From Gammaproteobacteria bacterium (lineage in GTDB: Bacteria > Pseudomonadota > Gammaproteobacteria > Arenicellales > Poriferihabitantaceae): a stretch of DNA of 41,325 nucleotides. Positions 2,367-41,033 of this stretch are shown piece after piece. Position 1 is the first letter of the stretch, and every line of letters begins with the position of its first letter. The notes under the pieces are model-generated. The model made no database searches. It saw only the letters and a list, made by a program, of their open reading frames with translations, and was not told the origin of the DNA. The position numbers and the translations under genes are program-made. Location: contig WLWV01000002.1 of NCBI GenBank assembly GCA_012103395.1, positions 1-41,325 of the forward strand. Reading direction: 5' to 3'.

Positions 2367-2415
2367 ATTCGAACCTCTGAGTTTTTGGTGTTAAGGGATT
2401 GTTTTGCTCGGACTG

Positions 2416-7498: not shown

Positions 7499-7521
7499 TA
7501 GATATTGACCACCGATTATGG

Positions 7522-9195: not shown

Positions 9196-9300
9196 TTAAT
9201 GTTCCTGCTTATTTTCTACGCTGTTTTTGGGTGTCCAGCACAAGGTGCTCCCAACAAAGATGACCTCCTAACAAGGCCGTTAAGATTCGGGCTAGGGAGG

Positions 9301-23692: not shown

Positions 23693-23732
23693 GTAGTCAT
23701 TGTGTGGTTTACATTCAAATGGGGAAGCATGA

Positions 23733-24986: not shown

Positions 24987-25046
24987 CTTTTCGTTCGATG
25001 GTCGTTTTGTCATCGTTGATTTCAGATTAGAGTTTTCGAAATAGAA

Positions 25047-26413: not shown

Positions 26414-27358
26414 GTGAATATTGCTGACCAAAAAATAGCCGTCCTCATTCCGTGCCTTAACGAAGAAGCAACAGTCACAACGGTGGTTCGAGACTTCAAA
26501 ACACAATTGCCTGAGGCAAGCATCTATGTGTTTGACAACGGCTCTGAAGACAGAACTGCGGCATTGGCTGAAGAAGCGGGCGCAACGGTAGTCACGGTGT
26601 CCAGAAGAGGGAAAGGTAATGTTGTCCGAGCTATGTTTCGCAAAATTGACGCGGACATTTATGTCATGATGGACGGTGATGCGACTTATTTGGCGACAGA
26701 TATCCATAAACTTCTGGAACCGATTGTTAACAATCAGGCAGACATGGTGGTGGGGGATCGTATTTCCTCGTCAGCGTATGACAAACAAAATACGCGACCC
26801 TTTCACAGCTCGGGAAACAAGCTTGTTAGATCGCTTATTAATGTATTATTTGGTGCCCAATGTAGTGACATTTTAAGTGGATATCGTGTATTTACTCGAT
26901 GCTTTGTTGAGAACTTTCCAACCATTAGCGAAGGGTTTGAAATTGAGACAGAGTTAACATTACATGCATTAGATCGTAAGGTCGAGTTCGTGCAAATTCC
27001 CATCGAATACAATGAACGACCCACAGGAAGTGAATCCAAGTTGAATACATTCTCAGATGGTTTTCGTATTATTAAAACCATTGCCATGGTGTTTAAAAAT
27101 TACCGGCCGCTACTTTTCTTCGGAATGCTAGCATTGGTTTTCGCTTTGACCGGACTGGTATTCGGTGCATTTCCAGTCATAGAGTATTTGCAGGAGGGGT
27201 ATGTGCACAAAGTGCCCAAAGCGATGCTTGCTGCTTCATTGGAATTGCTGGCAATGTTGTCCTTGGTTTGTGGCTTGGTGCTTGATACCTCTGTGAGGCA
27301 ACATCGGGAAATGCTTGAATTGAGAATGATCGACTATTTACGCCGCCATCCCAGATAA
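26414..27358 (+). CDS. GT2 glycosyltransferase with two C-terminal TM helices (GtrB/ArnC/DPM1-like polyprenyl-phosphate sugar synthase)
   Basis: 314 aa with a GTG start. 'IAVLIPCLNEE', 'VFDNGSEDRT' and 'DGDATY' (DxD). Two C-terminal hydrophobic helices: 'LLFFGMLALVFALTGLVFGAF' and 'AMLAASLELLAMLSLVCGLVL'. Confidence 0.85.
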   Translation: MNIADQKIAVLIPCLNEEATVTTVVRDFKTQLPEASIYVFDNGSEDRTAALAEEAGATVVTVSRRGKGNVVRAMFRKIDADIYVMMDGDATYLATDIHKLLEPIVNNQADMVVGDRISSSAYDKQNTRPFHSSGNKLVRSLINVLFGAQCSDILSGYRVFTRCFVENFPTISEGFEIETELTLHALDRKVEFVQIPIEYNERPTGSESKLNTFSDGFRIIKTIAMVFKNYRPLLFFGMLALVFALTGLVFGAFPVIEYLQEGYVHKVPKAMLAASLELLAMLSLVCGLVLDTSVRQHREMLELRMIDYLRRHPR

Positions 27359-27541
27359 GCGCGGTTGTCAGATGTTAATTCCTAGACATTGATTCGATAA
27401 GCATTCGCCGCCCATCTCATACGCGTCGCTATTCGAGGCAGTTTGAATTATCGGGCACTTTGTGGGTCTAAAGGTTATTGAAAAGTACGGTATTGAACTG
27501 TGCCTAGTAGGCCTAACCTAATGCTTAAACCCATTTTTCCC

Positions 27542-28399
27542 ATGAGACTAAATAGCCGCTGCGTTCTGAGCAATATCATATTCTGCGCGAGCCTAATGAT
27601 GATTGGTCTATGGTCGCTCCTTGTACACCCCGCTTTTGCCTTTTTTGAGAAGAAGGAAATAACCGCATATTGGCAAACCCATTCCGAGGATTCGTCAGTG
27701 GAAATTGATCACACTACTTGGGGGGAGTTGTTGGTAACGTATGTTATGCAAGAAGACGGTGTGAACTTATTTGATTATGGCGCGGTGACGAAGCGTGATC
27801 GACACCGTTTGCAACAGTACCTTGATCTAATGCAAGCGGTTAAAGTAACCGAGCTGAATAGTGCGGAACAGCAGCCTTATTGGATCAATCTATATAATGC
27901 CTTAACCGTTTGGGTGATATTGGAACACTATCCTGTGGACAGTATCCTCGATATTTCCTATCAACTCCTGACCCGGGGACCATGGAGCGAGGCGTTGGTC
28001 GAAGTGGAGCAACAGAAGCTGAGTCTTGACAATATCGAGCATGATATTTTGCGGCCAATCTTCAAAGACAATCGAATTCACTATGCGGTCAACTGCGCTT
28101 CATACAGTTGCCCTAATCTTCAGTCGGAACCCTTTACCCGAAACAATCTAGAAAGATTGTTAGAACGCTCTGCTAGCGATTACATTCGCCACAAAAGGGC
28201 TGTCCACGTTCAAGGAGGTAAGCTGGTGGTCTCTCGCATTTACGACTGGTATCGCGATGACTTCGGTGTGAACGATGAAGATATTATTGTGCATCTTCGC
28301 AAGTATGCTCATAATGATCTGGTGATTCAGTTAAAGGACATTGTTATCATTTCTGGTTATGAATACGACTGGTCATTAAATGAACCAATGTCAGATTAG
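27542..28399 (+). CDS. Secreted DUF547-domain protein
   Basis: 'YWINLYNALTVWVILEHYP' and 'YAVNCASYSCPNL' match the DUF547 signature. The ATG at 27542 gives the signal peptide 'MRLNSRCVLSNIIFCASLMMIGLWSLLVHPAFA'. The maximal ORF starts at the GTG at 27500. Confidence 0.75.
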   Translation: MRLNSRCVLSNIIFCASLMMIGLWSLLVHPAFAFFEKKEITAYWQTHSEDSSVEIDHTTWGELLVTYVMQEDGVNLFDYGAVTKRDRHRLQQYLDLMQAVKVTELNSAEQQPYWINLYNALTVWVILEHYPVDSILDISYQLLTRGPWSEALVEVEQQKLSLDNIEHDILRPIFKDNRIHYAVNCASYSCPNLQSEPFTRNNLERLLERSASDYIRHKRAVHVQGGKLVVSRIYDWYRDDFGVNDEDIIVHLRKYAHNDLVIQLKDIVIISGYEYDWSLNEPMSD

Positions 28400-28425
28400 A
28401 AGAATTTGGCAGTAAACGAGCAAAT

Positions 28426-29160
28426 ATGTACTTTAATAAGCATATTACGGTGATCATTCCCGCCTTGAACGAGGCGGCGGCAATTGGTTTGGTGATTGCG
28501 GATGTTCCAGACTGTGTTGATCATATTATTGTCGTGGATAACGGGTCTTTTGATGACACGGCAGGTATTGCGAAATCCCATGGTGCAACCGTTATCGTTG
28601 AACATCGAAAGGGTTATGGCGCGGCATGTATCGCCGGTTTAAAGGGCATAGTCAGCACCGATCTCATTGGTTTCATAGATGGTGATTATAGTGATTACCC
28701 GGGAGAGCTTACGCAAGTAATTACACCGGTGGCTCGGGGAGAAGCCGATTTGAGTATTGGGTGTCGACACAATCGGGATCAAAAAACTCCCTCAGGATTA
28801 TATTGGCATCAACGCCTTGGAAACTGGTTAGCGTGTGGTTTTGTTCGTTATGCCTACGGTTATCAGGTCACAGATTTTGGCCCCATGCGCTGTCTGAGAT
28901 GGGATGCTCTTGAGCGTTTAAATATGTGTGATCAGGATTATGGATGGACAGCAGAAATGCAAATTAAAGCCATCAAAAATGGATTCAGAATCTTAGAGGT
29001 CCCCGTGAATTACCGGCCACGGATAGGTGAGTCGAAAATCTCGGGAACCCTGAAGGGCTCCATCTTTGCGGGTTATAAGATTTTTTATTGGGCTATTCGA
29101 CTACTGTTTTCGACACAAAATCCACTATCAAATAACGAACGGTTGAAAGCCGCCCCGTAG
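28426..29160 (+). CDS. Soluble GT2 glycosyltransferase (DPM1/Ppm-catalytic-domain-like)
   Basis: 244 aa. 'ITVIIPALNEAAAI', 'VVDNGSFDDT' and 'DGDYSD' (DxD). No C-terminal TM pair. Confidence 0.85.
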   Translation: MYFNKHITVIIPALNEAAAIGLVIADVPDCVDHIIVVDNGSFDDTAGIAKSHGATVIVEHRKGYGAACIAGLKGIVSTDLIGFIDGDYSDYPGELTQVITPVARGEADLSIGCRHNRDQKTPSGLYWHQRLGNWLACGFVRYAYGYQVTDFGPMRCLRWDALERLNMCDQDYGWTAEMQIKAIKNGFRILEVPVNYRPRIGESKISGTLKGSIFAGYKIFYWAIRLLFSTQNPLSNNERLKAAP

Positions 29161-29171
29161 CCTCTTTATCC

Positions 29172-30506
29172 CTAAGGCTGCTGGGTATTGATAGGCTCAC
29201 GAGCCCAGAAAAGCCGCCATCTATCCAGCGTAAATGCAAAGATAATGAGTCCATATTCGAGTAGAGTCGCCCAATGAGCTACTTCATATGCCTGAAGGTT
29301 AGAATGAGCCATATTCAATCCAGTGAGATACGACAATGATGCTGTGGTTGCTATCGTCCAGGTCCAATAGCTCGGATGAATGACAGCAAAGGGTAGCAAC
29401 CAAATTAGATACCAAGGATTGAAAACAGGGGACAGAGCAAAGAACACACCAAATAACCAGTCACCTCTAAATACCGTGTTATGGGTTGATTCCATTGAGC
29501 CAGTTTGCCTAGTGATACGCCGATGAAACCAGTACAAATAGCCCGTCCAAAGTGTGGCAAAAATACCGAGACAAACTAATCGACTGTTCGAATCTGATAA
29601 GAACAGTTTGGCAATGGAGAAGATAGAAGCGTTGAATGTCCAACTCTGGGCGAAGCTGCTCAGCACAAACAGGTCAGTTTGGTGATGCAGTAGAAAAGGA
29701 AGATAAAGTAACGCGAAAACCAAAACGGTTATCAGCCAGTATTTGACGCCGAGTCCAAAAATAAGAAATGGCACAACGATCACCGCGAATACTTTAGCGG
29801 CTAGTGCAAGACCGGAAAAGAGCGCGGTCAAAAAAAAGTGGCGTGATCTCAGGGAAACGAGTGCCACAAAGACGAAAAATACGCCCACGATATCTGGGTG
29901 TGCGGTAAATGTGATCTCTTTTATCACTAATGGACACCAGGCATACAGCATCACGTTATTCGTGTTTGATAGGCGTAACAAACAAAGGATCAATCCCATA
30001 TCAAATAGCGAAAAGATAATTTGTAATACGGTGATATTCGCTGGGCTGATCCAACTCCCCAATGCAAAAAGGTACTGTAAAACTGGGCCGTAAATAGTGG
30101 GTATGTCAGGGTGGTTTACCCAAGTTAGTATGTCTTGGCATTCCGCTGAAAGCTGATTTGTTGCGAATAGGGTTTGCGGTGCTATTCCGTAGGGAGTTCC
30201 ATGCTCAATAAATACACATCCATCTGTTAAGTAACGAAAAAAGTCATCTTCAAGTATTGGAGAGCCAAACACGCCGATCACTCTGAATATCATCGCCCAG
30301 AGAATAAGGCAAAATAGGCTGAGGGTTTGATTGGTTTTGTGAAGGTAAAACCAGTATCCAAATATTGCCAAAGCAATCAACCAATGGATTTGCAGAAAAA
30401 AAACCACATTAATCCCAGAGTCTTCATTGGAAAGAAACTGCAGCGCTAGGTAAAAAGCAGCGCAGCAAGCCCCAATGAACCACTCGTGATGTCTTGGAAT
30501 TATCAT
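29172..30506 (-). CDS. Polytopic membrane protein, GT-C-like glycosyltransferase (DUF2029/PimE-like)
   Basis: 444 aa with 10 or more hydrophobic helices. An acidic 'SPILEDDFFRY' motif sits in the first predicted periplasmic loop, as in GT-C enzymes. It converges on the GT2 gene with an 11-nt gap. Confidence 0.55.
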   Translation of the reverse strand: MIIPRHHEWFIGACCAAFYLALQFLSNEDSGINVVFFLQIHWLIALAIFGYWFYLHKTNQTLSLFCLILWAMIFRVIGVFGSPILEDDFFRYLTDGCVFIEHGTPYGIAPQTLFATNQLSAECQDILTWVNHPDIPTIYGPVLQYLFALGSWISPANITVLQIIFSLFDMGLILCLLRLSNTNNVMLYAWCPLVIKEITFTAHPDIVGVFFVFVALVSLRSRHFFLTALFSGLALAAKVFAVIVVPFLIFGLGVKYWLITVLVFALLYLPFLLHHQTDLFVLSSFAQSWTFNASIFSIAKLFLSDSNSRLVCLGIFATLWTGYLYWFHRRITRQTGSMESTHNTVFRGDWLFGVFFALSPVFNPWYLIWLLPFAVIHPSYWTWTIATTASLSYLTGLNMAHSNLQAYEVAHWATLLEYGLIIFAFTLDRWRLFWAREPINTQQP

Positions 30507-30856: not shown

Positions 30857-31150
30857 ATGAAACCTGTCAAACTATTACTAGCCACTTCGATACTAATGTT
30901 CTCAACTCTGGGGTTTGCGTCCGGAGGTTTGGGCACGAATACAGACAGTGACTATAACATCGGCAAAAACGCATTTAAGCATAAGTTGTATTGTCAGACG
31001 TGCCCTTTAGAAAAAAAGCAACTTGACAGTGAGGTGGTGGGCGAAATTCTCGATTCACTGTCCACCCAAGGAGAGCTTGCTTCAACACTCACTGACAAGG
31101 AAAGACTGGCAGTGATCCACTTTCTTAAAAAGCGTTTTAATATACTGTGA
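30857..31150 (+). CDS. Small secreted protein, cytochrome-c-like with a degenerate CxxC-P motif
   Basis: 97 aa. Signal peptide 'MKPVKLLLATSILMFSTLGFA'. 'GKNAFKHKLYCQTCP' resembles a c-type haem site, but Pro replaces the His. Confidence 0.5.
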   Translation: MKPVKLLLATSILMFSTLGFASGGLGTNTDSDYNIGKNAFKHKLYCQTCPLEKKQLDSEVVGEILDSLSTQGELASTLTDKERLAVIHFLKKRFNIL

Positions 31151-33841: not shown

Positions 33842-34159
33842 ATGAATTCTGAATCCGGCCCGGAGTTTTTATTTTCAAACGTTGGTGCTCCCTTTCTAAT
33901 AGGCGCCGCGGTGGGTTTCTTTGCCAAAAAAGCGATGAAATTAGTTTTGTTCTTCGGGGGATTAGCGATTGTTTTGCTATTTTTTATGGAAAGCCAAGGC
34001 ATCACGGCAGTTGATAATGAAGGATTAAAAGACGGCGCATCAATGGTTGCAGCGAAAATGAGAGAATTTGGGAACTTCCTCACGCAACGCTTGGACAACA
34101 TTACAGGTAAGGGGGTAAGTGCCGCGGTGGGTTTTGTCGCTGGATTCAAAATGGGGTAG
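33842..34159 (+). CDS. FUN14-family small membrane protein
   Basis: 105 aa. 'GAAVGFFAKKAMKLVLFFGGLAIVLLFF' and the C-terminal 'GVSAAVGFVAGFKMG' glycine-zipper helices resemble FUN14. Confidence 0.55.
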   Translation: MNSESGPEFLFSNVGAPFLIGAAVGFFAKKAMKLVLFFGGLAIVLLFFMESQGITAVDNEGLKDGASMVAAKMREFGNFLTQRLDNITGKGVSAAVGFVAGFKMG

Positions 34160-34241
34160 ACTTTCGGTATGACGTTCATGGTCATTCTCGGTTTGTCGGG
34201 CTTCTCTGATACACGGATAATAATAACTGAAAGATGGTCAT

Positions 34242-35975
34242 ATGAGTTTATACAACAAGGCGAAAATACACTTTATCGAAAGCCATCAGCATCCTATTAA
34301 CCAAGGATTGCATCACATCGTCAATATTCTGGCGATCATTGGTATTGCGTATATCTTTGTGAATATATGGGTTAGTGTTATGTGTTTGATTTTGACCCAA
34401 GTGCTGGCTATCGGTGGACATTGGATATTCGAAAAGAACAAACCGGCATTTATCGAATATCCGGGTATTGTGATTCTTGTTTCATTGATGTGGTCTTTTG
34501 ATCGCTGGTTTGGATTAAAGGACCTGATGCAAAGATATATTCTTAAAAAAACTAACGTATTTGGAGCGAACTATTTCAATATGTACAACGGATTAACTGT
34601 AATTGATGCTGATGCACATAAGCTTGAAAACCCTGCTGTCTTTTTCGATTTTATCGAGCCAAAATACAGAGACAGAGTAGGCCTGATTGTTGATAGTTTG
34701 GGCGACCAACGTGTTCGTATTGCTGACTATAATCCCGAGACCGGGAAAAATGATTTGGAACGAATCTTTCCTCAAGCGAAAGGCCTTGGAAAGGGCGGGT
34801 TTCGTAGCTTGCATCCAGAAACCACCTTAGGTGCTATTTTTAACCGGGAACGTATCCGGCAAATGGATGATGAGGGCGTTGATGTACATGTCTTGTTTGG
34901 TACTTTTAATTTGACGCTTTCCTGTCTGATCGACGTGGATATGGCGATCTCTTTGTGTCGAGCCTACAACGATTACATTTCTGCCGATTGCCAAGGGTTC
35001 GAAGGCAGAATTAAACCCGTTGGTGTTATCCCTCTCCAGGATGTAGATTTCGCCGTGACTGAGATGCGCCGCTGCGTTGAAGAGCTTGGGATGGTGAGTG
35101 TTAGTTGCTCCCCCAGCATGCCCATTCCTCACCCCAAAGCACCGGACGCTTTTCCAGAAATTCGAACCGCTAAATCCATCAGCCACCCAGACTTTCGCCC
35201 TATTCTTAAAACTGCGGTTGAGTTGGACATTGCACTGAGCCTTCATGGAGGACCGGGTTCAAACCTAATGGGTGGTATTTCTGATCATATGGATACCTTT
35301 GTGCTGACCCATATTTTCGTGCAGAGGAATCAGCAACAACACGCCATGACGAGAATGATTTTTGATGGTGCGTTCGAAGAGTTTCCCACCCTACGCGTCG
35401 GATTTATGGAAGGTGGTTGCGGTTGGCTGCCAGATCTCGCGCATTCCTGCCACGAGCATTGGGAAAAACGAATACGTGATTTTGATCCACAAAACCCGTA
35501 CCGCCCTGGTTGGGCCGAATGTACGAAGCTATTATTGGAAGAGCAGGGTGGTAAAGCCCTGTTAGGAAATGCTCGGTCGATATTTGATTTGTTGTGGACG
35601 CGCTCCAAAGATCCTAAAAAAATAGATGATCAAAGCCTATATGAGCACTATGACTTACGTCACCGTGATCCTATGGAATACTTTGAACGTGGACAGATAT
35701 TCTTGTCTTTCGAACCAGATGATCCTGCGCCATTGTATTTACCCACGGCGATGGGAGATATTGGTAAAAAGCTGGTTTGCTTTTCCGCCGATTATGGCCA
35801 TTGGGATGGTATGCATACTGGGTGCGTGGACTATGTGGCGAGTAACCCAGATTATGATCGAGACCATCTGGAAGCGCTACTATCTGGAAATTCTTTGGCG
35901 CTCTATGGTGATCGATTGAGGAATTCGATGCCGTTGCAGTCGAGCTTGTCAGAACCCTTAAGAAAGTCCACTTAG
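34242..35975 (+). CDS. Fusion protein: N-terminal DUF962/Mpo1-like membrane domain plus C-terminal amidohydrolase_2 (ACMSD/LigW-like) domain
   Basis: 577 aa. The N-terminal 100 aa or so carry 'HQHPINQGLHH' and 'GGHWIFEKNKPA' between hydrophobic helices. The remainder has 'VIDADAHK', 'RQMDDEGVDVHVLF', 'ALSLHGG', 'FMEGGCGW' and 'FSADYGHWD'. Confidence 0.75.
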   Translation: MSLYNKAKIHFIESHQHPINQGLHHIVNILAIIGIAYIFVNIWVSVMCLILTQVLAIGGHWIFEKNKPAFIEYPGIVILVSLMWSFDRWFGLKDLMQRYILKKTNVFGANYFNMYNGLTVIDADAHKLENPAVFFDFIEPKYRDRVGLIVDSLGDQRVRIADYNPETGKNDLERIFPQAKGLGKGGFRSLHPETTLGAIFNRERIRQMDDEGVDVHVLFGTFNLTLSCLIDVDMAISLCRAYNDYISADCQGFEGRIKPVGVIPLQDVDFAVTEMRRCVEELGMVSVSCSPSMPIPHPKAPDAFPEIRTAKSISHPDFRPILKTAVELDIALSLHGGPGSNLMGGISDHMDTFVLTHIFVQRNQQQHAMTRMIFDGAFEEFPTLRVGFMEGGCGWLPDLAHSCHEHWEKRIRDFDPQNPYRPGWAECTKLLLEEQGGKALLGNARSIFDLLWTRSKDPKKIDDQSLYEHYDLRHRDPMEYFERGQIFLSFEPDDPAPLYLPTAMGDIGKKLVCFSADYGHWDGMHTGCVDYVASNPDYDRDHLEALLSGNSLALYGDRLRNSMPLQSSLSEPLRKST

Positions 35976-35984
35976 TTTACGGAG

Positions 35985-37049
35985 ATGGGCAAGCCTTCGG
36001 CGTTTTCTGAACAACCAGCACTCGCTATCAAAGAAGGTAGAAACGAAGTCCGGCAACAAGGTATCAATCCAGACTTTTGGTATCCCGTTGGCTGGGCGGA
36101 TGATTACAAACCCGGGCGAATTCATGGTGTTGAGATATGGCTGCATCGTATTGCGGTATATCGGGATCGTTCGGGTAAGCTGGGTGCGTTGGAGAATGCC
36201 TGCTTGCATAAAGGTGTGGAACTTCACAAAGGAACGGTGGAGCAGAATTGCGTCACTTGCCCTTATCACGGTTGGCAGTTCAACGCTAGCGGTGAATGTA
36301 TCCGTATTCCCTATTTGCCGGAGGGGCAGCCGTGTCCAGCTTCAACCATCCGCTCTTTCCCGGTTAAGGAGAAATATGGAATCATCTGGGTTTTCCCAGG
36401 TGATGTGAACAAAGCGAAAGCGGTTTCTCTACCTGAAGTAAAGGAATATGATAATTCCGACTATTTGATGATAAAAATACCGGGTCGCTTTTTTGCGCAT
36501 TTTTCAATTTGTAACGAAAACGCCATGGACGTGTTCCACGGTCATTTACACACAGGCCTAGAAGGCTGGTTCAATCCAATATTGGTCAAGCTCGATCGTC
36601 AGGATGATCGAATAACTGCTGAATATCAGGTTTCTTACAAGGGACGAATGGCTAAGTTTCTGGGTTTGGCTGAAACCGCAACCAAGGTGGAGCATCGGTG
36701 TATGGACATTGAATATCACTATCCTCATTACCGAAGCACAATGAGTACGCTTTCTTCCTTTTACTTACTGTGCCAACCCATTGGTCCCAAAGAAACTCGC
36801 TCTTATTCCCTGTTGTTTTTGAAGCCGAATTTACCACAATGGATATGGCTTCCTGTTCGTGGGCTTTTTTCGATGCTATTGCGGAAACGGTTTAAGCGAT
36901 TTCAGGATCAGGATAAAGAGATGATGGAGAGTGAGCAACCTAATTACGATACTGATCCAACAGCGAATCGAGTCGAATTTAACCCTGCTATCGTGGCCTT
37001 ACGTCAGCTTATGGCTAAGCAGGCTGATCTGTCAGACGGCTCTAAGTGA
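35985..37049 (+). CDS. Rieske [2Fe-2S] non-haem-iron oxygenase (PaO/VanA-like), copy 1
   Basis: 354 aa. 'CLHKGVELHKG...CPYHGWQF' forms a CxH-N16-CxxH motif. 'NENAMDVFHGHLH' is the mononuclear-iron motif. Confidence 0.85.
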   Translation: MGKPSAFSEQPALAIKEGRNEVRQQGINPDFWYPVGWADDYKPGRIHGVEIWLHRIAVYRDRSGKLGALENACLHKGVELHKGTVEQNCVTCPYHGWQFNASGECIRIPYLPEGQPCPASTIRSFPVKEKYGIIWVFPGDVNKAKAVSLPEVKEYDNSDYLMIKIPGRFFAHFSICNENAMDVFHGHLHTGLEGWFNPILVKLDRQDDRITAEYQVSYKGRMAKFLGLAETATKVEHRCMDIEYHYPHYRSTMSTLSSFYLLCQPIGPKETRSYSLLFLKPNLPQWIWLPVRGLFSMLLRKRFKRFQDQDKEMMESEQPNYDTDPTANRVEFNPAIVALRQLMAKQADLSDGSK

Positions 37050-38164
37050 TTTCGAGAAATACAGAGACTATGAAATCTGATCTCGATCTGAAGCCCCAGA
37101 AGCTTAACACCAGAACCAGAACGGTTGGCCCGGACCTTAATCACTGGTATCCAGTTGGGTGGTCAGATGGATTGAAACCAGGTCAGGTCAAAAATCAGGT
37201 TTTATGGGAACAGGAGATTGCGGTTTATCGAGGTGACAATGGTGACGCTTATGCGGTTGAGGATGCCTGTTTGCATAAAGGGGTAGCGCTGCATAAGGGT
37301 GATGTTCAGGGGGATGAATTGGTATGTCCCTATCACGGGTGGCGTTTTGATGGCCAGGGGCGATGTGTGGGGATTCCGTATGTGGATGATTCGAATCGAC
37401 TCCCAAAGAAGTGTCTACGGCGTTATCCACTAAAAGAACGCTACAATCTGATTTGGGTGTTTCCGGGAGACCCAGTGCTATCAGAGAGTATGAGCTTGCC
37501 GGATGTTCCTGAATACGACGACCCGGACTGGTTGATTGTGGAAATACCCGCCCACTTTAATGTTCATTTTTCAATGGTAAATGAAAATCCTTTGGACGTT
37601 TTTCACGGCCATCTACATCGCGATCTCCAAGGCTGGTACAACCCCGTATTAGTGTCGATGGAAAACGATGAGGACACCGTTAAGGCTGAGTACGAAGTGA
37701 CCTTCAAAAATGGCTGGTTACCTCGAATACTGGGCTTGACCCGTTCAAAGGAGTCAGAAGTAAAAAAGCGAATTGGGGTTGGCTATTATTATCCGCATTG
37801 CCGAAATAATATGCCGGGAAAGTCGAATTATTACTTTATGAGACAACCGCAGGGACCGATGTCGACGCAATCATACTCGTTGTTGTGCCTGAAAATTCGT
37901 TTGCCAGTGTGGTTGGTGAGCGTTGTCCGTAAGCCCTTATCGAGAATCCTTTGGTGGTTTCTGATCAAGCCGTTTCTTGATCAGGATATTGATGTTATGG
38001 AGAGCGAGCAAGCCAATTTCCATCGAAATCCCAACAGAAGACATGTCGAAATAAACCCCGTGATCGCGGCTGCTCAGCTATTGACGGTAAAAAAATATGA
38101 TCAATATCTACAGCTACAAGATACGCGGTTACAAAAAACATCCAATAATAAAGTAAAAACCTAG
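37046..38164 (+). CDS. Rieske [2Fe-2S] non-haem-iron oxygenase (PaO/VanA-like), copy 2
   Basis: 372 aa. 'CLHKGVALHKG...CPYHGWRF' and 'NENPLDVFHGHLH'. Roughly half the residues are identical to copy 1. The GTG at 37046 overlaps the upstream stop; an alternative ATG is at 37070. Confidence 0.85.
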   Translation: MISRNTETMKSDLDLKPQKLNTRTRTVGPDLNHWYPVGWSDGLKPGQVKNQVLWEQEIAVYRGDNGDAYAVEDACLHKGVALHKGDVQGDELVCPYHGWRFDGQGRCVGIPYVDDSNRLPKKCLRRYPLKERYNLIWVFPGDPVLSESMSLPDVPEYDDPDWLIVEIPAHFNVHFSMVNENPLDVFHGHLHRDLQGWYNPVLVSMENDEDTVKAEYEVTFKNGWLPRILGLTRSKESEVKKRIGVGYYYPHCRNNMPGKSNYYFMRQPQGPMSTQSYSLLCLKIRLPVWLVSVVRKPLSRILWWFLIKPFLDQDIDVMESEQANFHRNPNRRHVEINPVIAAAQLLTVKKYDQYLQLQDTRLQKTSNNKVKT

Positions 38165-38204
38165 CTTTTCTGAACTTAGACGACTCTAATGGCTCTATCT
38201 TGAG

Positions 38205-39836
38205 CTAGGCTCCCACGAAGTGAACCTGAGTTGAGTTAGCAGCTTTAGGCTTTTTCAGTGGTTTCTCTGCTTTTGGTGGAATCATAAACCGATCCAGCTC
38301 CTCGTCACTTAGTTGGGACACCTGTGCCTCGATATCCTCGCGTATATGATCGCGATATTCGTAAAAGTGCTCAAAATGTGCACAGCAAATAATGAATCCG
38401 TGAGCGCCTGCTGGGTTCTTTTTTGATAGTTGGAGCAAGTAGCGCCAAAAAGCTCGTCGACTTGACCGGATAACCCCCTGCCGCCAGAGAACCACCAGTA
38501 AAACGAAAACTTCCCTAGGTCCAGGCCAATGAGTTTTCTCACGGCTGGGCCGACGTCCCAATATCATGGAGCTACGATAAGTTCGAGCAAGAAAGTTTTT
38601 AGGTTCATACAAAGCCTGATTGCATTCAAGGTGTTCCTTTACCAGTTCCCTTAAAGGGCGAGTGGGAATAAAGTTCATCAAATTCCCTTGAGTCAGGCTC
38701 GCGTGGTCGGTCTCTGGAATCATCCGCCCTTCCTTCTTAAGCCTGTCCATTAAATGGGTTTCTGGCAATGCCTGCAGCATATTCAGCATGGCATGGGGAA
38801 TGCCGGATTCATCGATAAAGTCGGCAATACGTTGGCCAGCACCTGCTTTCTCTCCGTCAAATCCGATGATAAAGCCACCCATAACCCGTATTCCGGCACG
38901 GTTAATTGCTTTCACCTGGTCTGTCAAGGACTGGCGTAAATTCTGGGTTTTCTTTGTCAGGACAAGGCTGTCCACATCGGGTGTTTCAATGCCTAGAAAG
39001 ACCGCGCAGAAATATGACTGACGCATTAACTCAAGAAGTTCAGGGTCTTCGGCCAGATTGACAGAAGCTTCTGTGGTTAAGGGAAACGGATAATCATATT
39101 TTTGTTGCCATTTAACAATCGCTTCTAACAAAGGCTTTACTTTGGGTTTATTACCGATGAAATTGTCATCAACGAGAAATACGCTCCGATTCCATCCAAG
39201 ATCATGTAAAGTCTGTAGTTCCTCGATAACTTGATCCGGTGTTTTTGTTCTTGGTTTACGCCCATATAGGATAATGATGTCACAGAACTCACACAAAAAT
39301 GGGCAGCCCCGAGAAAACTGAAGCGACATTTCACTGTAGTTACTAAATTTGAGTAAATCGTAACGGGGAACCGGGCTTTGTGTCATGTCCGCTTTTTCGT
39401 CATTCGCATCAAAAACACCTGAGGTCTCTCCTCTGCGTATTGCTTCAACAAATGGTGGAATCGTGATTTCCCCTTCTCCGAGTACGAGAAAGTCGGCGCC
39501 GGCATTGGAGGCGTCATCCGGCACTGAGGTATAGTAAGGGCCGCCAACGGCCACCAGTTTATTACGGCGTTTCCCTGCTTTAATAAGGTCAGTCATGGAC
39601 TCTTTTTGGACGATCATTCCAGATATCATAACAATCTCTGCCCATTCCCAATCGTCTTCTGTGAGATCGTTCGCGTTGCAGTCCACTAAGCGAAAATCCC
39701 AATTCTGAGGTAATAATGCCGCGACGGTGATAAGGCTTAGTGGTGGCAGCAGTGCTTTCTTTCCGATCATTTTTAGCAATCCTTCGTAGGACCAGTAAGA
39801 AGGAGGGAATTCTGGGTATATTAGTAAAGTTCTCAT
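38205..39836 (-). CDS. B12-binding-domain radical SAM enzyme (class B, with a DUF4070-like C-terminus)
   Basis: 543 aa. An N-terminal Rossmann-like cobalamin-binding region, the 'FSRGCPFLCEFCD' CxxxCxxC motif and a long C-terminal extension. Confidence 0.9.
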   Translation of the reverse strand: MRTLLIYPEFPPSYWSYEGLLKMIGKKALLPPLSLITVAALLPQNWDFRLVDCNANDLTEDDWEWAEIVMISGMIVQKESMTDLIKAGKRRNKLVAVGGPYYTSVPDDASNAGADFLVLGEGEITIPPFVEAIRRGETSGVFDANDEKADMTQSPVPRYDLLKFSNYSEMSLQFSRGCPFLCEFCDIIILYGRKPRTKTPDQVIEELQTLHDLGWNRSVFLVDDNFIGNKPKVKPLLEAIVKWQQKYDYPFPLTTEASVNLAEDPELLELMRQSYFCAVFLGIETPDVDSLVLTKKTQNLRQSLTDQVKAINRAGIRVMGGFIIGFDGEKAGAGQRIADFIDESGIPHAMLNMLQALPETHLMDRLKKEGRMIPETDHASLTQGNLMNFIPTRPLRELVKEHLECNQALYEPKNFLARTYRSSMILGRRPSREKTHWPGPREVFVLLVVLWRQGVIRSSRRAFWRYLLQLSKKNPAGAHGFIICCAHFEHFYEYRDHIREDIEAQVSQLSDEELDRFMIPPKAEKPLKKPKAANSTQVHFVGA

Positions 39837-40037
39837 AGTGACTCGGGTTTTTTATGCGGGCATAAGTAATCAGAGAAATGAAAGTTTGGCTCTCCAAATA
39901 AAACAGTATTGATAGTTCTTAACGCACCATATCACAGTGAAAGTCAGTTTGATCACATAATTGCCTATTATCTCGGTGTGGCGAATTAAGGCCAGTGTGC
40001 CAGGGAGTTTTTCTGAATCGAGTATTGGAATAATGGA

Positions 40038-41033
40038 TCAACTGGGTGCACTAGAGCGATGCCATGTCTTATGAGCTATCTTCCCGATGGTTTCTAAACC
40101 AAATAGACTGACGAAAATAGCCAAGGCGAACAAACGTATCAGGCGCATAATGAGTGAAAATATTATCCCAAGGCCGGGATCGATGCCAAGGACTAAGCAG
40201 ACGCCACCAATGGACCATTCGCGAACACCGATATTTCCCGGGGTAATGATAAAGGCGTGGGTAAGTCGATAGGTGGCAAGTAATAACGCGGCATTGTGTA
40301 ACTCAATAGGGCTCCCCAAGCCATCAAAGATAATGACAACGATGGTGGTTAATCCACAAAACATGAGAAATCCGATGCCAATTAGGTTTATGGACTGTTT
40401 GGTATTCTTTGCACAATCCCAGAATCCATCCAATAACTTCGCAATTTGTTCTCCAACGCGACCCGGGCAAAAACGCGTAGTGCAGAAGAATCGCAGCAAT
40501 TGGGTACCAATAGGGGCGATTAGAAAGGCGATCATTGCAAAGGACAACAAGAGTTCCATGGAGATTATTGAGGTTTCAAATTCCTCTAATAGGAGAAACC
40601 CAAGCAAGGCCGCTGTTGCAAATGTAATGAGTATGTCTAGCCACGAAATGAACAGAAAAACAGAGCCGTAGTTTGCGTACGCCAGATCGAAGTGTTGTTT
40701 AGCTAAGCGTGCACGATAAACATCGCCTGCTTGGGAGATAAAAAAGTTTAGACTTTGTCCAATTACGTTGATTCGCAACCACTTTCTGAAAAAAAAATGA
40801 TGATTGGCAAAGGACCGTATAACAAGATAAGTGCGAAATGCGAGTAAGCCGACGATTAATAAGTCAATAACGATAATAAGCGCGACATGTGAACGAGTGA
40901 GGTTTGATAGAGATTGTAATGCTTCAGGGTTCTGATTAAAGTAGCGAATAATCAGATAGATTAGCAGCAAGCTCAGCGTAATAATAAAAGTGTGTCGCAG
41001 AAGCTTTTTTTTATCGCTAAAAACGGACGTCAC
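40038..41033 (-). CDS. UPF0104 / lysylphosphatidylglycerol-synthase-TM-region-like (flippase-like) membrane protein
   Basis: 331 aa with about 8 TM helices. 'QAGDVYRARL' after TM3 and 'ITPGNIGVREW' late in the sequence are the motifs I associate with the UPF0104 family. Confidence 0.65.
   Translation of the reverse strand: MTSVFSDKKKLLRHTFIITLSLLLIYLIIRYFNQNPEALQSLSNLTRSHVALIIVIDLLIVGLLAFRTYLVIRSFANHHFFFRKWLRINVIGQSLNFFISQAGDVYRARLAKQHFDLAYANYGSVFLFISWLDILITFATAALLGFLLLEEFETSIISMELLLSFAMIAFLIAPIGTQLLRFFCTTRFCPGRVGEQIAKLLDGFWDCAKNTKQSINLIGIGFLMFCGLTTIVVIIFDGLGSPIELHNAALLLATYRLTHAFIITPGNIGVREWSIGGVCLVLGIDPGLGIIFSLIMRLIRLFALAIFVSLFGLETIGKIAHKTWHRSSAPS

What the first reader, a model, noticed from the sequence alone, without database searches (positions are those of the whole stretch)
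33842..41033. Convergent membrane-anchored oxygenase / radical-SAM locus with no assignable pathway
Six adjacent genes form two converging units.

- **Plus strand:** a FUN14 membrane protein, a DUF962/Mpo1-like::amidohydrolase_2 fusion and two tandem Rieske oxygenases. The intergenic gaps are 82 nt and 9 nt, and the last two genes overlap by 4 nt.
- **Minus strand:** a UPF0104 (MprF-TM-like) membrane protein and a B12-binding radical SAM enzyme.

Three of the six proteins are integral or anchored membrane proteins. Four catalytic domains are of types that act on unactivated or hydrophobic carbon skeletons: class B rSAM, two Rieske mono/dioxygenases and an Mpo1-like Fe(II) dioxygenase domain. 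The window contains no core biosynthetic gene (PKS, NRPS, terpene cyclase, shc or bch genes) and no transporter for an aromatic substrate.

My inference is that this is a tailoring system for a membrane-resident substrate such as a lipid, isoprenoid, quinone or tetrapyrrole. I do not recognise it as any characterised pathway.
Basis: partly seen in the sequence, partly recalled or inferred. Interest (0 to 1): 0.7.

Follow-up and report, generated by a model that had tools for sequence, protein, structure and literature searches.

The report
Oxidative tailoring genes of an unknown amino-lipid
These genes are real and belong together: they are the oxygen- and radical-dependent "decorating" half of a gene cluster, shared by many cyanobacteria and some marine bacteria, that most likely builds an undescribed ceramide-like membrane lipid.

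Summary
All six ORFs and their domain assignments are confirmed.

Three corrections apply:
- **The fusion is unique to this window.** It depends on one base in an A7 run. In 31 other loci, DUF962 and the TIM-barrel protein are separate adjacent genes.
- **The "amidohydrolase" is probably an oxygenase.** It is closest to DitZ/PtmU3, the amidohydrolase-related dinuclear oxygenases (AROs). Its clade carries a D-x-G-H-x-D motif instead of D-x-P-H-x-D/E.
- **FUN14 is lineage-specific.**

The two converging units are linked. DUF962, ARO, SdmA/CruH-clade Rieske oxygenase(s) and an orthologous B12-radical-SAM lie within 10 kb of each other in at least 6 independent lineages (gammaproteobacteria, SAR324, cyanobacteria), in different gene orders.

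Across lineages, the tailoring genes usually sit beside a trio: an α-oxoamine synthase, a GNAT-like acyltransferase and a 3β-HSD/epimerase-type reductase. These are the same enzyme types as bacterial ceramide synthesis. GH3 amide synthetases, other lipid hydroxylases and exporters are often nearby. In the closest relative, the trio lies just past UPF0104, beyond the window's edge.

No isoprenoid gene appears in any of the 13 annotated loci.

Best reading: oxidative and radical tailoring, plus flipping, of a fatty-acyl-derived amino-lipid. The product and each reaction are unknown. This is an uncharacterised pathway built from known enzyme families.

The parts
33842..34159 (+). FUN14-family small membrane protein (105 aa). 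It is peripheral: probably co-transcribed here, but it is not part of the conserved set.
   Evidence: - Pfam FUN14, E 1.9e-11.
- Two to three hydrophobic segments.
- Homologue present only in L020 and L033, at 86% identity.
- Absent from L025, L027, L030 and L032.
34242..34556 (+). DUF962/Mpo1-like membrane domain (residues 1 to about 105 of the 577-aa ORF). Elsewhere this is a separate protein of about 105 aa. It is a candidate Fe(II) enzyme.
   Evidence: - Pfam Mpo1-like, E 6.4e-10.
- H10, H15, H24, H25, H60, E64, N20 and N28 are invariant across 32 sequences.
- Lies next to the ARO gene in 31 other loci.
34545..34555 (+). A7 homopolymer (34545-34551) followed by an out-of-frame TAA (34553-34555). 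This is the junction that creates the apparent fusion.
   Evidence: - Read directly from the sequence.
- L033 and L020 have one more base here and stop at the homologous TAA.
34581..35975 (+). ARO-like TIM-barrel protein (Met114 to 577), a putative dinuclear Fe2 or Mn/Fe monooxygenase. It belongs to a clade with a variant C-terminal motif, D-Y-G-H-W-D.
   Evidence: - Best solved relatives by sequence: DitZ 8uyr at 3.2e-21 and PtmU3 6omp at 1.3e-14, against ACMSD at 6e-12.
- D124, H126, H335, E390, D517, H520 and D522 are at least 98% conserved in 120 sequences, and DYGHWD is present in 119 of 120.
- Foldseek ranks DitZ and PtmU3 first, but decarboxylases score nearly the same.
35985..37049 (+). 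Rieske non-haem-iron oxygenase, Rk1 type (354 aa), of the SdmA/CruH clade.
   Evidence: - Pfam Rieske and VanA_C.
- SdmA model 192 bits, full length, against a cutoff of 600.
- Rieske cluster motif, a D-V-F-H-G-H-L-H iron site and QD..M.E.EQ are all present.
- Rk1-type orthologues at 55-59% identity in L003, L025 and L026.
37046..38164 (+). Rieske non-haem-iron oxygenase, Rk2 type (372 aa, or 364 aa from the ATG at 37070), of the SdmA/CruH clade.
   Evidence: - SdmA model 260 bits, full length.
- Motifs as for Rk1.
- Orthologues at 63-84% identity in L020, L002, L003, L025, L026 and L032.
38205..39836 (-). Class B (B12-binding) radical SAM enzyme with a DUF4070 domain (543 aa, or 521 aa in the collection's gene call).
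   Evidence: - Pfam B12-binding, Radical_SAM and DUF4070.
- CPFLCEFC at residue 178.
- No NCBIfam equivalog: the best hit is the PhpK family at 85 bits against a cutoff of 600.
- Orthologues at 56-82% identity lie on the same contigs as the ARO and Rieske hits.
40038..41033 (-). UPF0104 / LPG_synthase_TM flippase-like membrane protein (331 aa). It has no synthase domain.
   Evidence: - Pfam E 4.7e-20, covering residues 19-306.
- TIGR00374 flippase-like domain at 26.9 bits, below the 43.2 cutoff.
- Lies directly upstream of the orthologous rSAM in L003, L025/L034 and L033.
- Absent from the cyanobacterial clusters.

Best explanation
Window 33842-41033 is the tailoring and translocation segment of a conserved lipid biosynthetic gene cluster.

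**Shown**
- A membrane DUF962 (Mpo1-like) protein, an ARO-like TIM-barrel protein, one or two Rieske oxygenases of the SdmA/CruH clade, and an orthologous B12-radical SAM enzyme travel together. They do so in gammaproteobacteria, SAR324 and many cyanobacteria.
- In most lineages these genes sit beside an alpha-oxoamine synthase, a GNAT-like acyltransferase and a 3beta-HSD/epimerase-type reductase.
- GH3 amide synthetases, other lipid hydroxylases and exporters are often nearby.

**Inferred mechanism**
1. The synthase condenses a fatty-acyl thioester with an amino acid. The reductase and acyltransferase turn the product into a ceramide-like N-acyl amino-alcohol.
2. The B12-rSAM methylates or otherwise rearranges an unactivated carbon of the chain.
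3. The Rieske pair oxidises a methyl or methylene C-H stepwise towards alcohol or acid, as SdmA and CruH do. An unlinked reductase supplies the electrons.
4. The ARO hydroxylates an aliphatic C-H at a dinuclear metal site. Its obligate partner DUF962 acts on the oxygenated product in the membrane, possibly by Mpo1-type oxidative decarboxylation of a 2-hydroxy acid.
5. The UPF0104 protein flips the lipid to the outer leaflet.

The product, the amino-acid unit and the individual reactions are unknown.
For: **Linkage**
- An orthologous rSAM lies within 10 kb of the ARO in the window/L020/L033 lineage, L032, SAR324 L003, L025, the cyanobacterial L028 and the Nostocales L030. Gene order differs between these lineages.
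- rSAM, ARO and Rieske hits share at least 9 contigs.
- DUF962 lies next to the ARO in 31 other loci.

**Scaffold genes**
- The AOS, GNAT-like and 3beta-HSD-like genes of the gamma relative L033 are 50-55% identical to those of the Nostocales cluster.
- The same trio lies directly beside Mpo1-ARO in Synechococcus PCC 7336.
- It lies beside a Rieske gene in Gloeothece PCC 7822.
- It lies beside Rk1-Rk2 in L038.
- SAR324 has instead an acyl-AMP-ligase::citrate-synthase fusion, which is also a fatty-acyl condensing enzyme.

**Other lipid enzymes nearby**
- FA_hydroxylase.
- Asp_Arg_Hydrox.
- A GH3 distantly related to the lyso-ornithine-lipid synthetase OlsH (PMC12493201).
- MacB/FtsX, MFS and HlyD-like exporters.

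**Enzyme chemistry**
- ARO ligands are invariant and the best sequence hits are DitZ and PtmU3 (PMC13154177).
- Iron ligands are intact in both Rieske proteins.
- SdmA and CruH are methyl-to-carboxyl oxidases (PMC10202945, PMC7395447).
- Mpo1 is a 2-hydroxy fatty acid dioxygenase (PMC10398889).

**Negative evidence**
No isoprenoid synthase or cyclase appears in any of the 13 annotated loci.
Against: - The window itself has no AOS, GNAT-like or reductase gene. Its last 292 nt show no HlyD-like ORF, unlike L033. The trio's presence in this genome is therefore inferred from a relative.
- The AOS scores no higher against serine palmitoyltransferase models than against BioF and KBL.
- Homology of the GNAT-like and reductase proteins to bCerS and CerR could not be tested.
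- Every characterised relative of the tailoring enzymes acts on isoprenoids: SdmA, CruH, DitZ and PtmU3. The reductase's best models are HpnA and SdmB.
- Fold comparison does not separate an oxygenase from a decarboxylase.
- The strict ARO motif has Pro where this clade has Gly.
- No reductase for the Rieske or ARO enzymes is encoded nearby.
- No product is known.
Confidence: 0.6

Rival explanations
1. Isoprenoid tailoring. The same enzymes modify a hopanoid, carotenoid or sterol-like triterpenoid made elsewhere in the genome. A Rieske methyl-to-carboxyl oxidation would be followed by removal or conjugation of the carboxylate, as in SdmAB C-4 demethylation or CruH synechoxanthin formation. The rSAM and UPF0104 pair would play roles like HpnJ and HpnL.
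For: - Both Rieske proteins align full-length to the SdmA model at 192 and 260 bits.
- JGI names close cyanobacterial homologues renierapurpurin 18,18'-hydroxylase.
- The ARO's nearest characterised relatives, DitZ and PtmU3, hydroxylate diterpenoids (PMC13154177).
- The cluster reductase scores best against HpnA (208 bits) and SdmB (151 bits).
- An RPE65 carotenoid-cleavage-type gene follows the module in L026.
- An MMPL/Patched/sterol-sensing protein lies nearby in SAR324.
- Class B rSAMs with DUF4070 include HpnJ, HpnR and BchE.
Against: - No polyprenyl synthase, squalene or phytoene synthase, or cyclase appears in any of the 13 annotated loci.
- All scores are far below the equivalog cutoffs: SdmA 260 of 600, SdmB 151 of 600, HpnA 208 of 368, HpnJ 56 of 578.
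- The SdmA-model score is a clade-wide property, 145-260 bits.
- UPF0104 does not match any HpnL model.
- The constant neighbours are fatty-acyl and amino-acid condensing enzymes.
Confidence: 0.22
2. Oxidative demethylation with a true decarboxylase. The PF04909 protein would be a non-oxidative, mononuclear-metal decarboxylase of the ACMSD/LigW/IDCase type. It would remove the carboxylate that the Rieske enzymes make from a methyl group, and DUF962 would serve only as a membrane anchor.
For: - Foldseek places ACMSD, gamma-resorcylate and 5-carboxyvanillate decarboxylases at almost the same E-value and TM-score as DitZ and PtmU3.
- The protein lies next to Rieske enzymes of a methyl-to-carboxyl oxidase clade.
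- The strict ARO motif D-x-P-H-x-D/E is not met, because this clade has Gly in place of Pro.
Against: - By sequence, DitZ (3e-21) and PtmU3 (1e-14) clearly outrank ACMSD (6e-12).
- The N-terminal motif is D-x-H, which PMC13154177 gives as characteristic of AROs.
- H520 and D522 of the ARO-type H-x-D element are at least 98% conserved, as are H335 and E390, the candidate additional ligands of a dinuclear site.
- PMC13154177 reports that the ARO C-terminal motif is found in no characterised PF04909 hydrolase or decarboxylase.
- DUF962 keeps five invariant His and Glu residues, which a mere anchor would not need.
Confidence: 0.1
3. Catabolism. The locus would degrade an exogenous hydrophobic or aromatic compound, using Rieske oxygenases and a PF04909 enzyme as in vanillate, dicamba or abietane pathways. 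The minus-strand pair would be unrelated.
For: - The nearest solved Rieske relatives include dicamba O-demethylase, KshA and carbazole dioxygenase.
- DitZ is described as a diterpenoid hydroxylase (PMC13154177). That it belongs to diterpenoid catabolism is my own recollection.
- The rest of the window is rich in amino-acid catabolic genes.
Against: - No ring-cleavage enzyme, reductase or ferredoxin component, catabolic regulator or uptake system lies nearby.
- The cluster is commonest in photoautotrophic cyanobacteria. There it sits with biosynthetic genes (AOS, GH3, rSAM, acyltransferase) and exporters.
- The minus-strand rSAM is syntenic with the module in at least 6 lineages.
Confidence: 0.05

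Closest known systems
Amidohydrolase-related dinuclear oxygenases (AROs): DitZ, PtmU3, SfbO, AibH2
   Same: - PF04909 TIM-barrel fold.
- N-terminal D-x-H motif.
- Conserved mid-barrel His and Glu.
- C-terminal D-x-x-H-x-D element.
- DitZ and PtmU3 are the best sequence and fold hits.
- Genomic association with a Rieske-domain protein.
   Different: - The C-terminal motif has Gly, not Pro, across the whole clade, so a strict motif census would miss it.
- The Rieske neighbour is a full-length oxygenase with its own iron site, not a small Rieske ferredoxin.
- It has an obligate neighbour, a DUF962 membrane protein, that no ARO paper read here reports.
- It carries a clade-specific invariant helix, HSCHEHWEKRIRDFDP.
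- Metal content and activity are untested.
SdmA/SdmB bacterial sterol C-4 demethylation
   Same: - A Rieske oxygenase of the same clade, with full-length alignment to the SdmA model.
- In relatives, a 3beta-HSD-family reductase that also matches the SdmB model.
   Different: - Scores reach 192-260 of 600 for SdmA and 151 of 600 for SdmB.
- No oxidosqualene cyclase, CYP51 or other sterol gene lies nearby.
- The reductase sits with an AOS and an acyltransferase instead.
CruH, the renierapurpurin 18,18'-hydroxylase of synechoxanthin synthesis
   Same: - Same Rieske clade, with the H-x3-H iron motif.
- JGI gives this name to homologues at 44-46% identity.
- CruH's hydroxylase/oxidase steps convert the methyl group to a carboxylic acid (PMC7395447, PMC8342508).
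   Different: - A second group, also labelled CruH, is only 30-33% identical to Rk1 and Rk2.
- The ARO-linked Rieske proteins form their own subclades.
- No cruE or other carotenoid gene lies nearby.
Yeast Mpo1 (2-hydroxy fatty acid dioxygenase of phytosphingosine catabolism)
   Same: - Matches the Pfam Mpo1-like domain over nearly its full length.
- Membrane-embedded.
- Conserved His residues that could bind Fe(II).
- A sphingoid or fatty-acid context is plausible here too.
   Different: - About 105 aa and always paired with an ARO.
- No activity has been tested.
- The catalytic residues defined for Mpo1 could not be compared, because the papers are not held.
Bacterial ceramide synthesis (Spt, bCerS, CerR)
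   Same: - The same three enzyme types sit beside the module in relatives: an alpha-oxoamine synthase, an acyltransferase and a reductase.
- The ceramide genes are often clustered on the genome (PMC11334938). PMC11087976 gives their roles.
- The flippase for bacterial sphingolipids is still unknown (PMC11087976).
   Different: - The AOS scores below every Spt model cutoff, and slightly better against BioF.
- Homology of the other two proteins to bCerS and CerR was not tested.
- None of the trio lies inside this window.
Hopanoid side-chain genes hpnI-hpnJ-hpnK-hpnL (recalled from memory, used as a lead only)
   Same: - A B12-rSAM with DUF4070 sits next to a UPF0104/LPG_synthase_TM membrane protein.
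- In L025 a GT2 glycosyltransferase lies there too.
   Different: - HpnJ model 56 bits against a cutoff of 578.
- No HpnL model hit.
- No shc or other hpn genes.

Membership tests
ARO superfamily (amidohydrolase-related dinuclear oxygenases) | N-terminal D-x-H metal-binding motif | tested here: met
   IDAD(124)AH(126). The VIDADAHK sequence is conserved in essentially all of 120 clade members. The motif definition comes from PMC13154177.
ARO superfamily (amidohydrolase-related dinuclear oxygenases) | C-terminal D-x-P-H-x-D/E motif | tested here: inconclusive
   The clade has D517-Y-G-H520-W-D522 in 119 of 120 sequences. Asp, His and Asp are kept, but Pro is replaced by Gly. The protein aligns with PtmU3's DYPHLE.
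ARO superfamily (amidohydrolase-related dinuclear oxygenases) | Closer to characterised AROs than to PF04909 hydrolases and decarboxylases | tested here: met
   - phmmer: DitZ 3.2e-21 and PtmU3 1.3e-14, against ACMSD 6e-12.
- Foldseek gives the same top ranks but does not discriminate, at 3e-14 against 1.3e-13.
ARO superfamily (amidohydrolase-related dinuclear oxygenases) | Dinuclear Fe2 or Mn/Fe cofactor and O2-dependent C-H oxidation | not testable with these tools
   This needs metal analysis and an enzyme assay.
SdmA (4beta-methylsterol monooxygenase, NF052579 equivalog) | Score at or above the curated equivalog cutoff of 600 bits | tested here: not met
   Rk1 scores 192 bits and Rk2 260 bits, both full length. 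Other clade members score 145-239 bits.
SdmA (4beta-methylsterol monooxygenase, NF052579 equivalog) | Sterol-synthesis gene context (osc, CYP51, sdmB) | tested here: not met
   None of these genes appears in the window or in the 13 annotated related loci.
Rieske non-haem-iron oxygenase, VanA/PaO-type alpha subunit | Rieske C-x-H...C-x2-H cluster motif together with a 2-His-1-carboxylate iron site | tested here: met
   - C-x-H-x17-C-x2-H in both proteins.
- The first and last His of D-V-F-H-G-H-L-H align to the H-x4-H motif of SxtT and KshA, with a one-residue deletion.
- The QD..M.E.EQ motif is conserved.
Mpo1 / DUF962 family | Match to PF06127 above the gathering score | tested here: met
   39.5 bits against a cutoff of 24, covering profile positions 10-89 of 95.
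Mpo1 / DUF962 family | Catalytic His residues and Fe(II)-dependent 2-hydroxy fatty acid dioxygenase activity | tested here: inconclusive
   H10, H15, H24, H25, H60 and E64 are invariant in 32 sequences. The residues mapped in yeast Mpo1 could not be compared because the papers are not held. Activity is not testable here.
Class B (cobalamin-dependent) radical SAM | N-terminal B12-binding domain plus a radical SAM core with CxxxCxxC | tested here: met
   PF02310, PF04055 and PF13282 all score above their cutoffs. CPFLCEFC lies at residue 178.
HpnJ / HpnR / BchE / PhpK (named class B rSAM equivalogs) | Score at or above the curated cutoff of any named model | tested here: not met
   The best hit is the PhpK family at 85 of 600 bits. 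HpnR scores 61 of 650, BchE 60 of 481 and HpnJ 56 of 578.
MprF-type LPG_synthase_TM / UPF0104 flippase-like proteins | Match to PF03706 across the TM region | tested here: met
   72.7 bits against a cutoff of 33.4, covering residues 19-306. There is no C-terminal synthase domain. TIGR00374 scores 26.9 bits, below its 43.2 cutoff.
Bacterial ceramide pathway (Spt / bCerS / CerR) | AOS that scores as, or groups with, serine palmitoyltransferases | tested here: inconclusive
   - Cluster AOS from L028: Spt models 114-170 bits against cutoffs of 500-670, and BioF 233 of 426.
- PDB search with the L033 AOS: AONS/KBL 137 bits and SPT 118 bits.
Bacterial ceramide pathway (Spt / bCerS / CerR) | Homology of the acyltransferase to bCerS and of the reductase to CerR | not tested
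   No reference sequences were obtainable. Only the family level is known: a weak GNAT match at 19-25 bits and an Epimerase/3Beta_HSD match.

The most novel reading that the evidence does not exclude
The DUF962-ARO pair is a previously unrecognised two-component, membrane-associated oxygenase: a dinuclear TIM-barrel hydroxylase coupled to an Mpo1-type Fe(II) dioxygenase.

Together with SdmA/CruH-clade Rieske methyl oxidases and a B12-radical SAM, it remodels the alkyl chains of an undescribed family of ceramide-like amino-lipids. These lipids would be widespread in cyanobacteria and present in SAR324 and marine gammaproteobacteria.

The UPF0104 protein would be the missing flippase for such bacterial sphingoid lipids.
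Probability: 0.25. Interest if true: 0.8.

Novelty: new variant of a known kind. Interest (0 to 1): 0.66.

Why it matters
**An unknown lipid in many phototrophs**
The cluster occurs in Nostocales, Leptolyngbyaceae, Coleofasciculus, Gloeothece and Synechococcus PCC 7336, among others. These organisms would then make an oxidatively tailored amino-lipid that nobody has described. That bears on membrane biology and on lipid biomarkers.

**A broader ARO family**
The finding extends the newly defined ARO oxygenase superfamily to a clade that its published sequence signature would miss. It also gives that clade an obligate membrane partner.

**A first bacterial context for DUF962/Mpo1**

**A candidate flippase**
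UPF0104 becomes a candidate for bacterial sphingoid lipids. PMC11087976 states that no such flippase has been identified.

**Testability**
Several cultured strains carry the cluster, so all of this can be tested directly.

Tried and rejected
1. **A conserved DUF962::amidohydrolase fusion.** Rejected. The two are separate genes in 31 other loci. No fusion exists among 1.84 billion representatives. The window differs from its relatives by one base in an A-run.
2. **PF04909 domain as a decarboxylase completing a Rieske-driven demethylation.** This was my first idea. It is downgraded because the sequence rank and ligand motifs point to AROs. It is kept as a rival because the fold search cannot separate the two.
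3. **SdmA orthology.** Rejected. The score is 260 of 600, and the whole clade scores similarly.
4. **HpnJ/HpnL identity of the minus-strand pair.** Rejected on model scores.
5. **Rieske proteins as mere electron carriers for the ARO.** Not supported, because both keep a full catalytic iron site. A dual role cannot be excluded.
6. **Trio genes just beyond the window edge.** The last 292 nt hold no HlyD-like ORF.
7. **AlphaFold of the 577-aa ORF to see DUF962 docking.** The N-terminal part scored pLDDT below 50, which is uninformative.
8. **PDB searches for the GNAT-like protein and UPF0104.** No hits.
9. **Literature.** Searches for DUF962 and for this gene combination found nothing relevant. 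The Mpo1 mechanism papers are not held. No ceramide reference sequences were found in the supplement.
10. **Promoter and terminator scan.** Fewer sites than expected by chance, which is uninformative.

Full report
**1. Observation**

The six ORFs are present exactly where stated: 33842-34159(+), 34242-35975(+), 35985-37049(+), 37046-38164(+), 38205-39836(-) and 40038-41033(-). Base composition across the region is unremarkable, with GC 0.43-0.47.

Pfam confirms FUN14, Mpo1-like with Amidohydro_2, Rieske (twice, the first also VanA_C), B12-binding with Radical_SAM and DUF4070, and LPG_synthase_TM. All score above their gathering thresholds.

The Rieske cluster motif, an iron-site motif and the rSAM CxxxCxxC are present. 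Hydropathy supports three membrane proteins.

Pfam scans of the other large ORFs in the window find only unrelated functions:
- amino-acid catabolism, including urocanase, proline-racemase-family and DAO enzymes;
- TauD, a sulfatase, two GT2 glycosyltransferases and DUF547;
- a Na/H exchanger, GFA, an ECF sigma factor and GST.

No PKS, NRPS, terpene or bch gene is present.

**2. The "fusion" is not a conserved feature**

- The public collection's gene call for this ORF is 464 aa. That corresponds to a start at Met114, my inference from its length and query coverage. All 120 best homologues are about 460-470 aa and carry PF04909 only.
- tblastn of the two halves shows that DUF962 and the TIM-barrel gene are adjacent but separate in every other locus.
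- In 31 loci DUF962 ends at its own stop codon. That stop lies 8 nt inside the next gene in SAR324 and L025, and up to 846 nt before it elsewhere.
- An exhaustive phmmer search of 1.84 billion representatives found no protein matching both halves. DUF962 hits are separate proteins of 108-137 aa.
- At the junction the window has an A7 run at 34545-34551.
- The closest relatives, L033 and L020, read ...AAC AAA AAA TAA. The window lacks one base there, so the homologous TAA (34553-34555) falls out of frame.
- The fusion is therefore a very recent 1-nt deletion or a homopolymer error.
- Either way, the tight DUF962-ARO pairing is itself strong evidence of a functional link.

**3. The "amidohydrolase" is most likely an oxygenase**

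- Against solved structures the best sequence matches are DitZ (8uyr, 3.2e-21) and PtmU3 (6omp, 1.3e-14). ACMSD-type decarboxylases follow at 6e-12.
- DitZ and PtmU3 belong to the recently defined amidohydrolase-related dinuclear oxygenases (AROs).
- AROs are characterised by an N-terminal D-x-H motif and a C-terminal D-x-P-H-x-D/E motif. They are often found beside Rieske proteins (PMC10811679, PMC13154177).
- The window protein has D124-A-H126 and D517-Y-G-H520-W-D522.
- Across 120 clade members D124, H126, H335, E390, D517, H520 and D522 are at least 98% conserved. The motif is DYGHWD in 119 of them. The clade thus keeps the ligands but carries Gly where the published signature has Pro.
- More distant paralogues have lost these residues, reading GYGRWD or AAARK.
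- An AlphaFold model reached mean pLDDT 72.7, with 70-95 in most of the barrel. Foldseek ranks DitZ and PtmU3 first, but ACMSD and other decarboxylases score almost the same.
- The fold alone therefore does not decide the question, and the decarboxylase reading is kept as a rival.

**4. The Rieske pair**

- Both proteins align full-length to NCBIfam's SdmA model (bacterial sterol C-4 methyl oxidase), at 192 and 260 bits. The equivalog cutoff is 600.
- JGI names their cyanobacterial homologues (44-46% identity) renierapurpurin 18,18'-hydroxylase, that is, CruH.
- SdmA and CruH both oxidise a methyl group on a membrane isoprenoid towards a carboxylate (PMC10202945, PMC7395447, PMC8342508).
- The first and last His of D-V-F-H-G-H-L-H align to the H-x4-H motif of SxtT and KshA, with a one-residue deletion.
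- This H-x3-H spacing and the QD..M.E.EQ motif are shared by the whole clade: Rk1, Rk2, the cyanobacterial paralogues and the CruH-like group. More distant VanA-type enzymes lack the spacing.
- Clade members score 145-260 bits full-length on the SdmA model. Outsiders reach only 70-105 bits, over the N-terminal part only.
- Rk1-type, Rk2-type and the cyanobacterial proteins form three subclades at 45-57% mutual identity.
- Both window proteins look catalytically competent. Neither is an SdmA orthologue.

**5. Synteny: the two converging units belong together**

The genome-collection scan with the fusion ORF gave 24 loci in Leptolyngbyaceae and other cyanobacteria, SAR324 and a gammaproteobacterial MAG. 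Annotated contexts show the following.

| Locus | Lineage | Arrangement |
|---|---|---|
| L025/L034 | unknown lineage | rSAM, Mpo1-like, ARO, Rk1, Rk2, SDR, peptidase M19, GH3, GT2 and an unknown gene. The orthologous rSAM (66%) and LPG_synthase_TM converge on these. |
| L003/L027 | SAR324 | LPG_synthase_TM, rSAM, a 991-aa protein, GH3, an AAA-ATPase/PDDEXK gene, Mpo1-like, ARO. The Rieske pair lies 2 kb away. |
| L032 | unnamed metagenome contig | Two rSAMs diverge from Mpo1-like, ARO and Rieske. |
| L028 | cyanobacterial | FA_hydroxylase, ARO and rSAM, with Rieske, AOS, GNAT-like, 3β-HSD-like and GH3. |
| L030 | Nostocales | Cupin_8, FA_hydroxylase, Mpo1-like, ARO, Rieske, rSAM, GNAT-like, 3β-HSD-like. 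AOS, MFS, GH3 and MacB/FtsX flank these. |
| L033 | closest gamma relative | GNAT-like and AOS diverge from 3β-HSD-like, HlyD-like, LPG_synthase_TM and rSAM. Rk2, ARO, Mpo1-like and FUN14 converge on these. |

Further points:
- The rSAM's best homologues lie on the same contigs as the ARO and Rieske hits. Examples are the contigs of 9,734, 141,145, 697,903, 51,209, 9,494,340, 401,600, 41,055, 8,687 and 8,620 bp.
- In one lineage (L026/L035) the rSAM lies about 34 kb from the ARO on the same contig.
- As a rough estimate of my own, the chance of an orthologue falling within 10 kb of another gene in a genome of about 5 Mb is about 0.004 per lineage. It was seen in at least 6 lineages, in different gene orders.
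- LPG_synthase_TM accompanies the rSAM only in the non-cyanobacterial lineages.
- FUN14 occurs only in the window's own lineage.

**6. What the module acts on**

The constant partner across lineages is a trio: an α-oxoamine synthase (AOS), a GNAT-like protein of about 370-385 aa, and a 3β-HSD/epimerase-type reductase.
- The gamma (L033) and Nostocales versions of the trio are 50-55% identical. This matches the 48-67% seen for DUF962, ARO, Rieske and rSAM.
- In Synechococcus PCC 7336 the order is Mpo1-like, ARO, AOS, GNAT-like, reductase.
- In Gloeothece PCC 7822 the order is FA_hydroxylase / Rieske, AOS, GH3, Asp_Arg_Hydrox ... GNAT-like, reductase.
- In L038 GNAT-like and AOS diverge from the reductase, Rk1 and Rk2.
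- SAR324 lacks the trio near the module. Its 991-aa protein is an acyl-AMP ligase fused to a citrate-synthase domain, another enzyme that condenses a fatty-acyl thioester with a small polar unit.

Other recurrent neighbours are lipid-type enzymes and exporters:
- FA_hydroxylase;
- Asp_Arg_Hydrox (from memory, the family of the lipid hydroxylases LpxO and OlsC);
- GH3, distantly related to the lyso-ornithine-lipid synthetase OlsH (88 bits; PMC12493201);
- MacB/FtsX with an ABC ATPase, MFS and HlyD-like proteins.

No polyprenyl, squalene or phytoene synthase or cyclase appears in any of the 13 annotated loci. The only isoprenoid-flavoured neighbours are one RPE65 gene (L026) and one MMPL/sterol-sensing protein (L027).

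The AOS, acyltransferase and reductase are the same enzyme types as bacterial ceramide synthesis, Spt, bCerS and CerR (PMC11087976, PMC11334938). Membership is not established:
- The AOS scores below all Spt cutoffs, and slightly better against BioF.
- It is equidistant from AONS/KBL and SPT structures.
- bCerS and CerR reference sequences could not be obtained.

**7. Limits for this window**

The trio is not in the window. The 292 nt beyond UPF0104 contain no HlyD-like ORF, unlike L033. Its presence in this genome is therefore inferred from a relative whose proteins are 82-91% identical (Rk2 84%, rSAM 82%, Na/H exchanger 91%).

**8. Mechanism (inferred)**

A fatty-acyl-derived N-acyl amino-alcohol is the most economical substrate.
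- The B12-rSAM would methylate or rearrange an unactivated carbon. No named equivalog matches, and the nearest solved structures score only 37-38 bits.
- The Rieske pair would oxidise methyl or methylene C-H, by analogy with SdmA and CruH.
- The ARO would hydroxylate aliphatic C-H, as DitZ, PtmU3, SfbO and AibH2 do.
- DUF962 has invariant H10, H15, H24, H25, H60 and E64 and looks like a metal enzyme. By analogy with Mpo1 (PMC10398889) it could oxidatively decarboxylate a 2-hydroxy acid.
- A chemically coherent cascade is therefore CH3 → COOH (Rieske), then α-hydroxylation (ARO), then loss of CO2 (DUF962). GH3 would amidate carboxylates where it is present.
- UPF0104 would flip the product across the membrane.
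- None of these steps has been shown.
- No reductase partner is encoded nearby.
- Whether the full-length Rieske oxygenase also feeds electrons to the ARO, as small Rieske ferredoxins do for other AROs, remains open.

**9. Novelty and verdict**

No paper found describes this gene combination. Each enzyme belongs to a known family, so this is not a new kind of system.

It is nonetheless uncharacterised and widely conserved. Cultured carriers include Tolypothrix bouteillei, Coleofasciculus chthonoplastes, Aetokthonos hydrillicola, Synechococcus PCC 7336, Gloeothece PCC 7822 and Scytonema hofmannii PCC 7110.

Two features are new:
- an ARO clade outside the published motif;
- an obligate DUF962-ARO pairing.

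Noticed in passing
window 26414-30506: The run GT2 (26414-27358), DUF547 (27500-28399), GT2 (28426-29160) and a 444-aa polytopic membrane protein (29172-30506, minus strand) is conserved in L020 and L033. In L033 the membrane protein's homologue is annotated as MptA_B-family. It could be a polyprenyl-phosphate-sugar glycosylation module. The run is not conserved with the tailoring module in other lineages.
   Followed up: partly
window 35442-35489 (ARO residues 401-416): The segment HSCHEHWEKRIRDFDP is largely invariant across the ARO-like clade. H401, H404, E405, H406, W407, E408, K409, R410, R412, D413 and D415 are at least 98% conserved. Most of it is modelled as part of a helix following the Glu390 strand. 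Its role is unknown: it could be a partner interface or a second site.
   Followed up: no
L003 3382-6357 (+): This SAR324 991-aa protein fuses an AMP-binding acyl ligase to a citrate-synthase C-terminal domain. It sits between the rSAM and GH3 genes of the cluster and resembles an alkylcitrate synthase.
   Followed up: partly
P0377, P0382 (distant ARO-like proteins): These paralogues, at 35-50% identity, have lost the metal-ligand residues (GYGRWD in place of DYGHWD; AAARK in place of DADAHK). From memory, this resembles the non-catalytic AibH1 partner of AibH2.
   Followed up: partly
L033 3-974; L035 5490-6593; L027 2088-5960: Cyclic-nucleotide-binding domains are fused to an ABC ATPase in two lineages and to an MMPL/Patched/sterol-sensing transporter in SAR324. 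All lie next to cluster genes. Lipid export may be regulated by a cyclic nucleotide.
   Followed up: no
L026 7134-9146: Two transposase genes (DDE_Tnp_1 and DDE_3) occupy the position upstream of the ARO, where DUF962 normally sits. This is the only full-length ARO locus without DUF962.
   Followed up: no
window 30857-31150 (+): A 97-aa protein with an N-terminal hydrophobic segment and a CxxC pair matches no Pfam family. It is conserved at about 70% identity in L020, and L033 has an unannotated gene of similar size at the same position.
   Followed up: no
window 504-3198 (-): A TauD-family dioxygenase, a HalD-like protein and a short-chain dehydrogenase lie in a row. Their substrate is unknown.
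   Followed up: no
window 22826-26048 (+) and 6497-10521 (-): A DHDPS-family enzyme, a DAO-family oxidase and a proline-racemase-family enzyme lie in a row and look like a hydroxyproline-catabolism set. Separately, an ornithine cyclodeaminase-family protein, urocanase and an amidohydrolase lie together. This is ordinary amino-acid catabolism.
   Followed up: no
L032 1155-4433; L025 7934-9532 and 19012-20577: Two paralogous B12-rSAM/DUF4070 genes sit in the same cluster in two lineages. In L025 the second copy is only 48% identical to the window's rSAM. This suggests two distinct radical steps in some producers.
   Followed up: no
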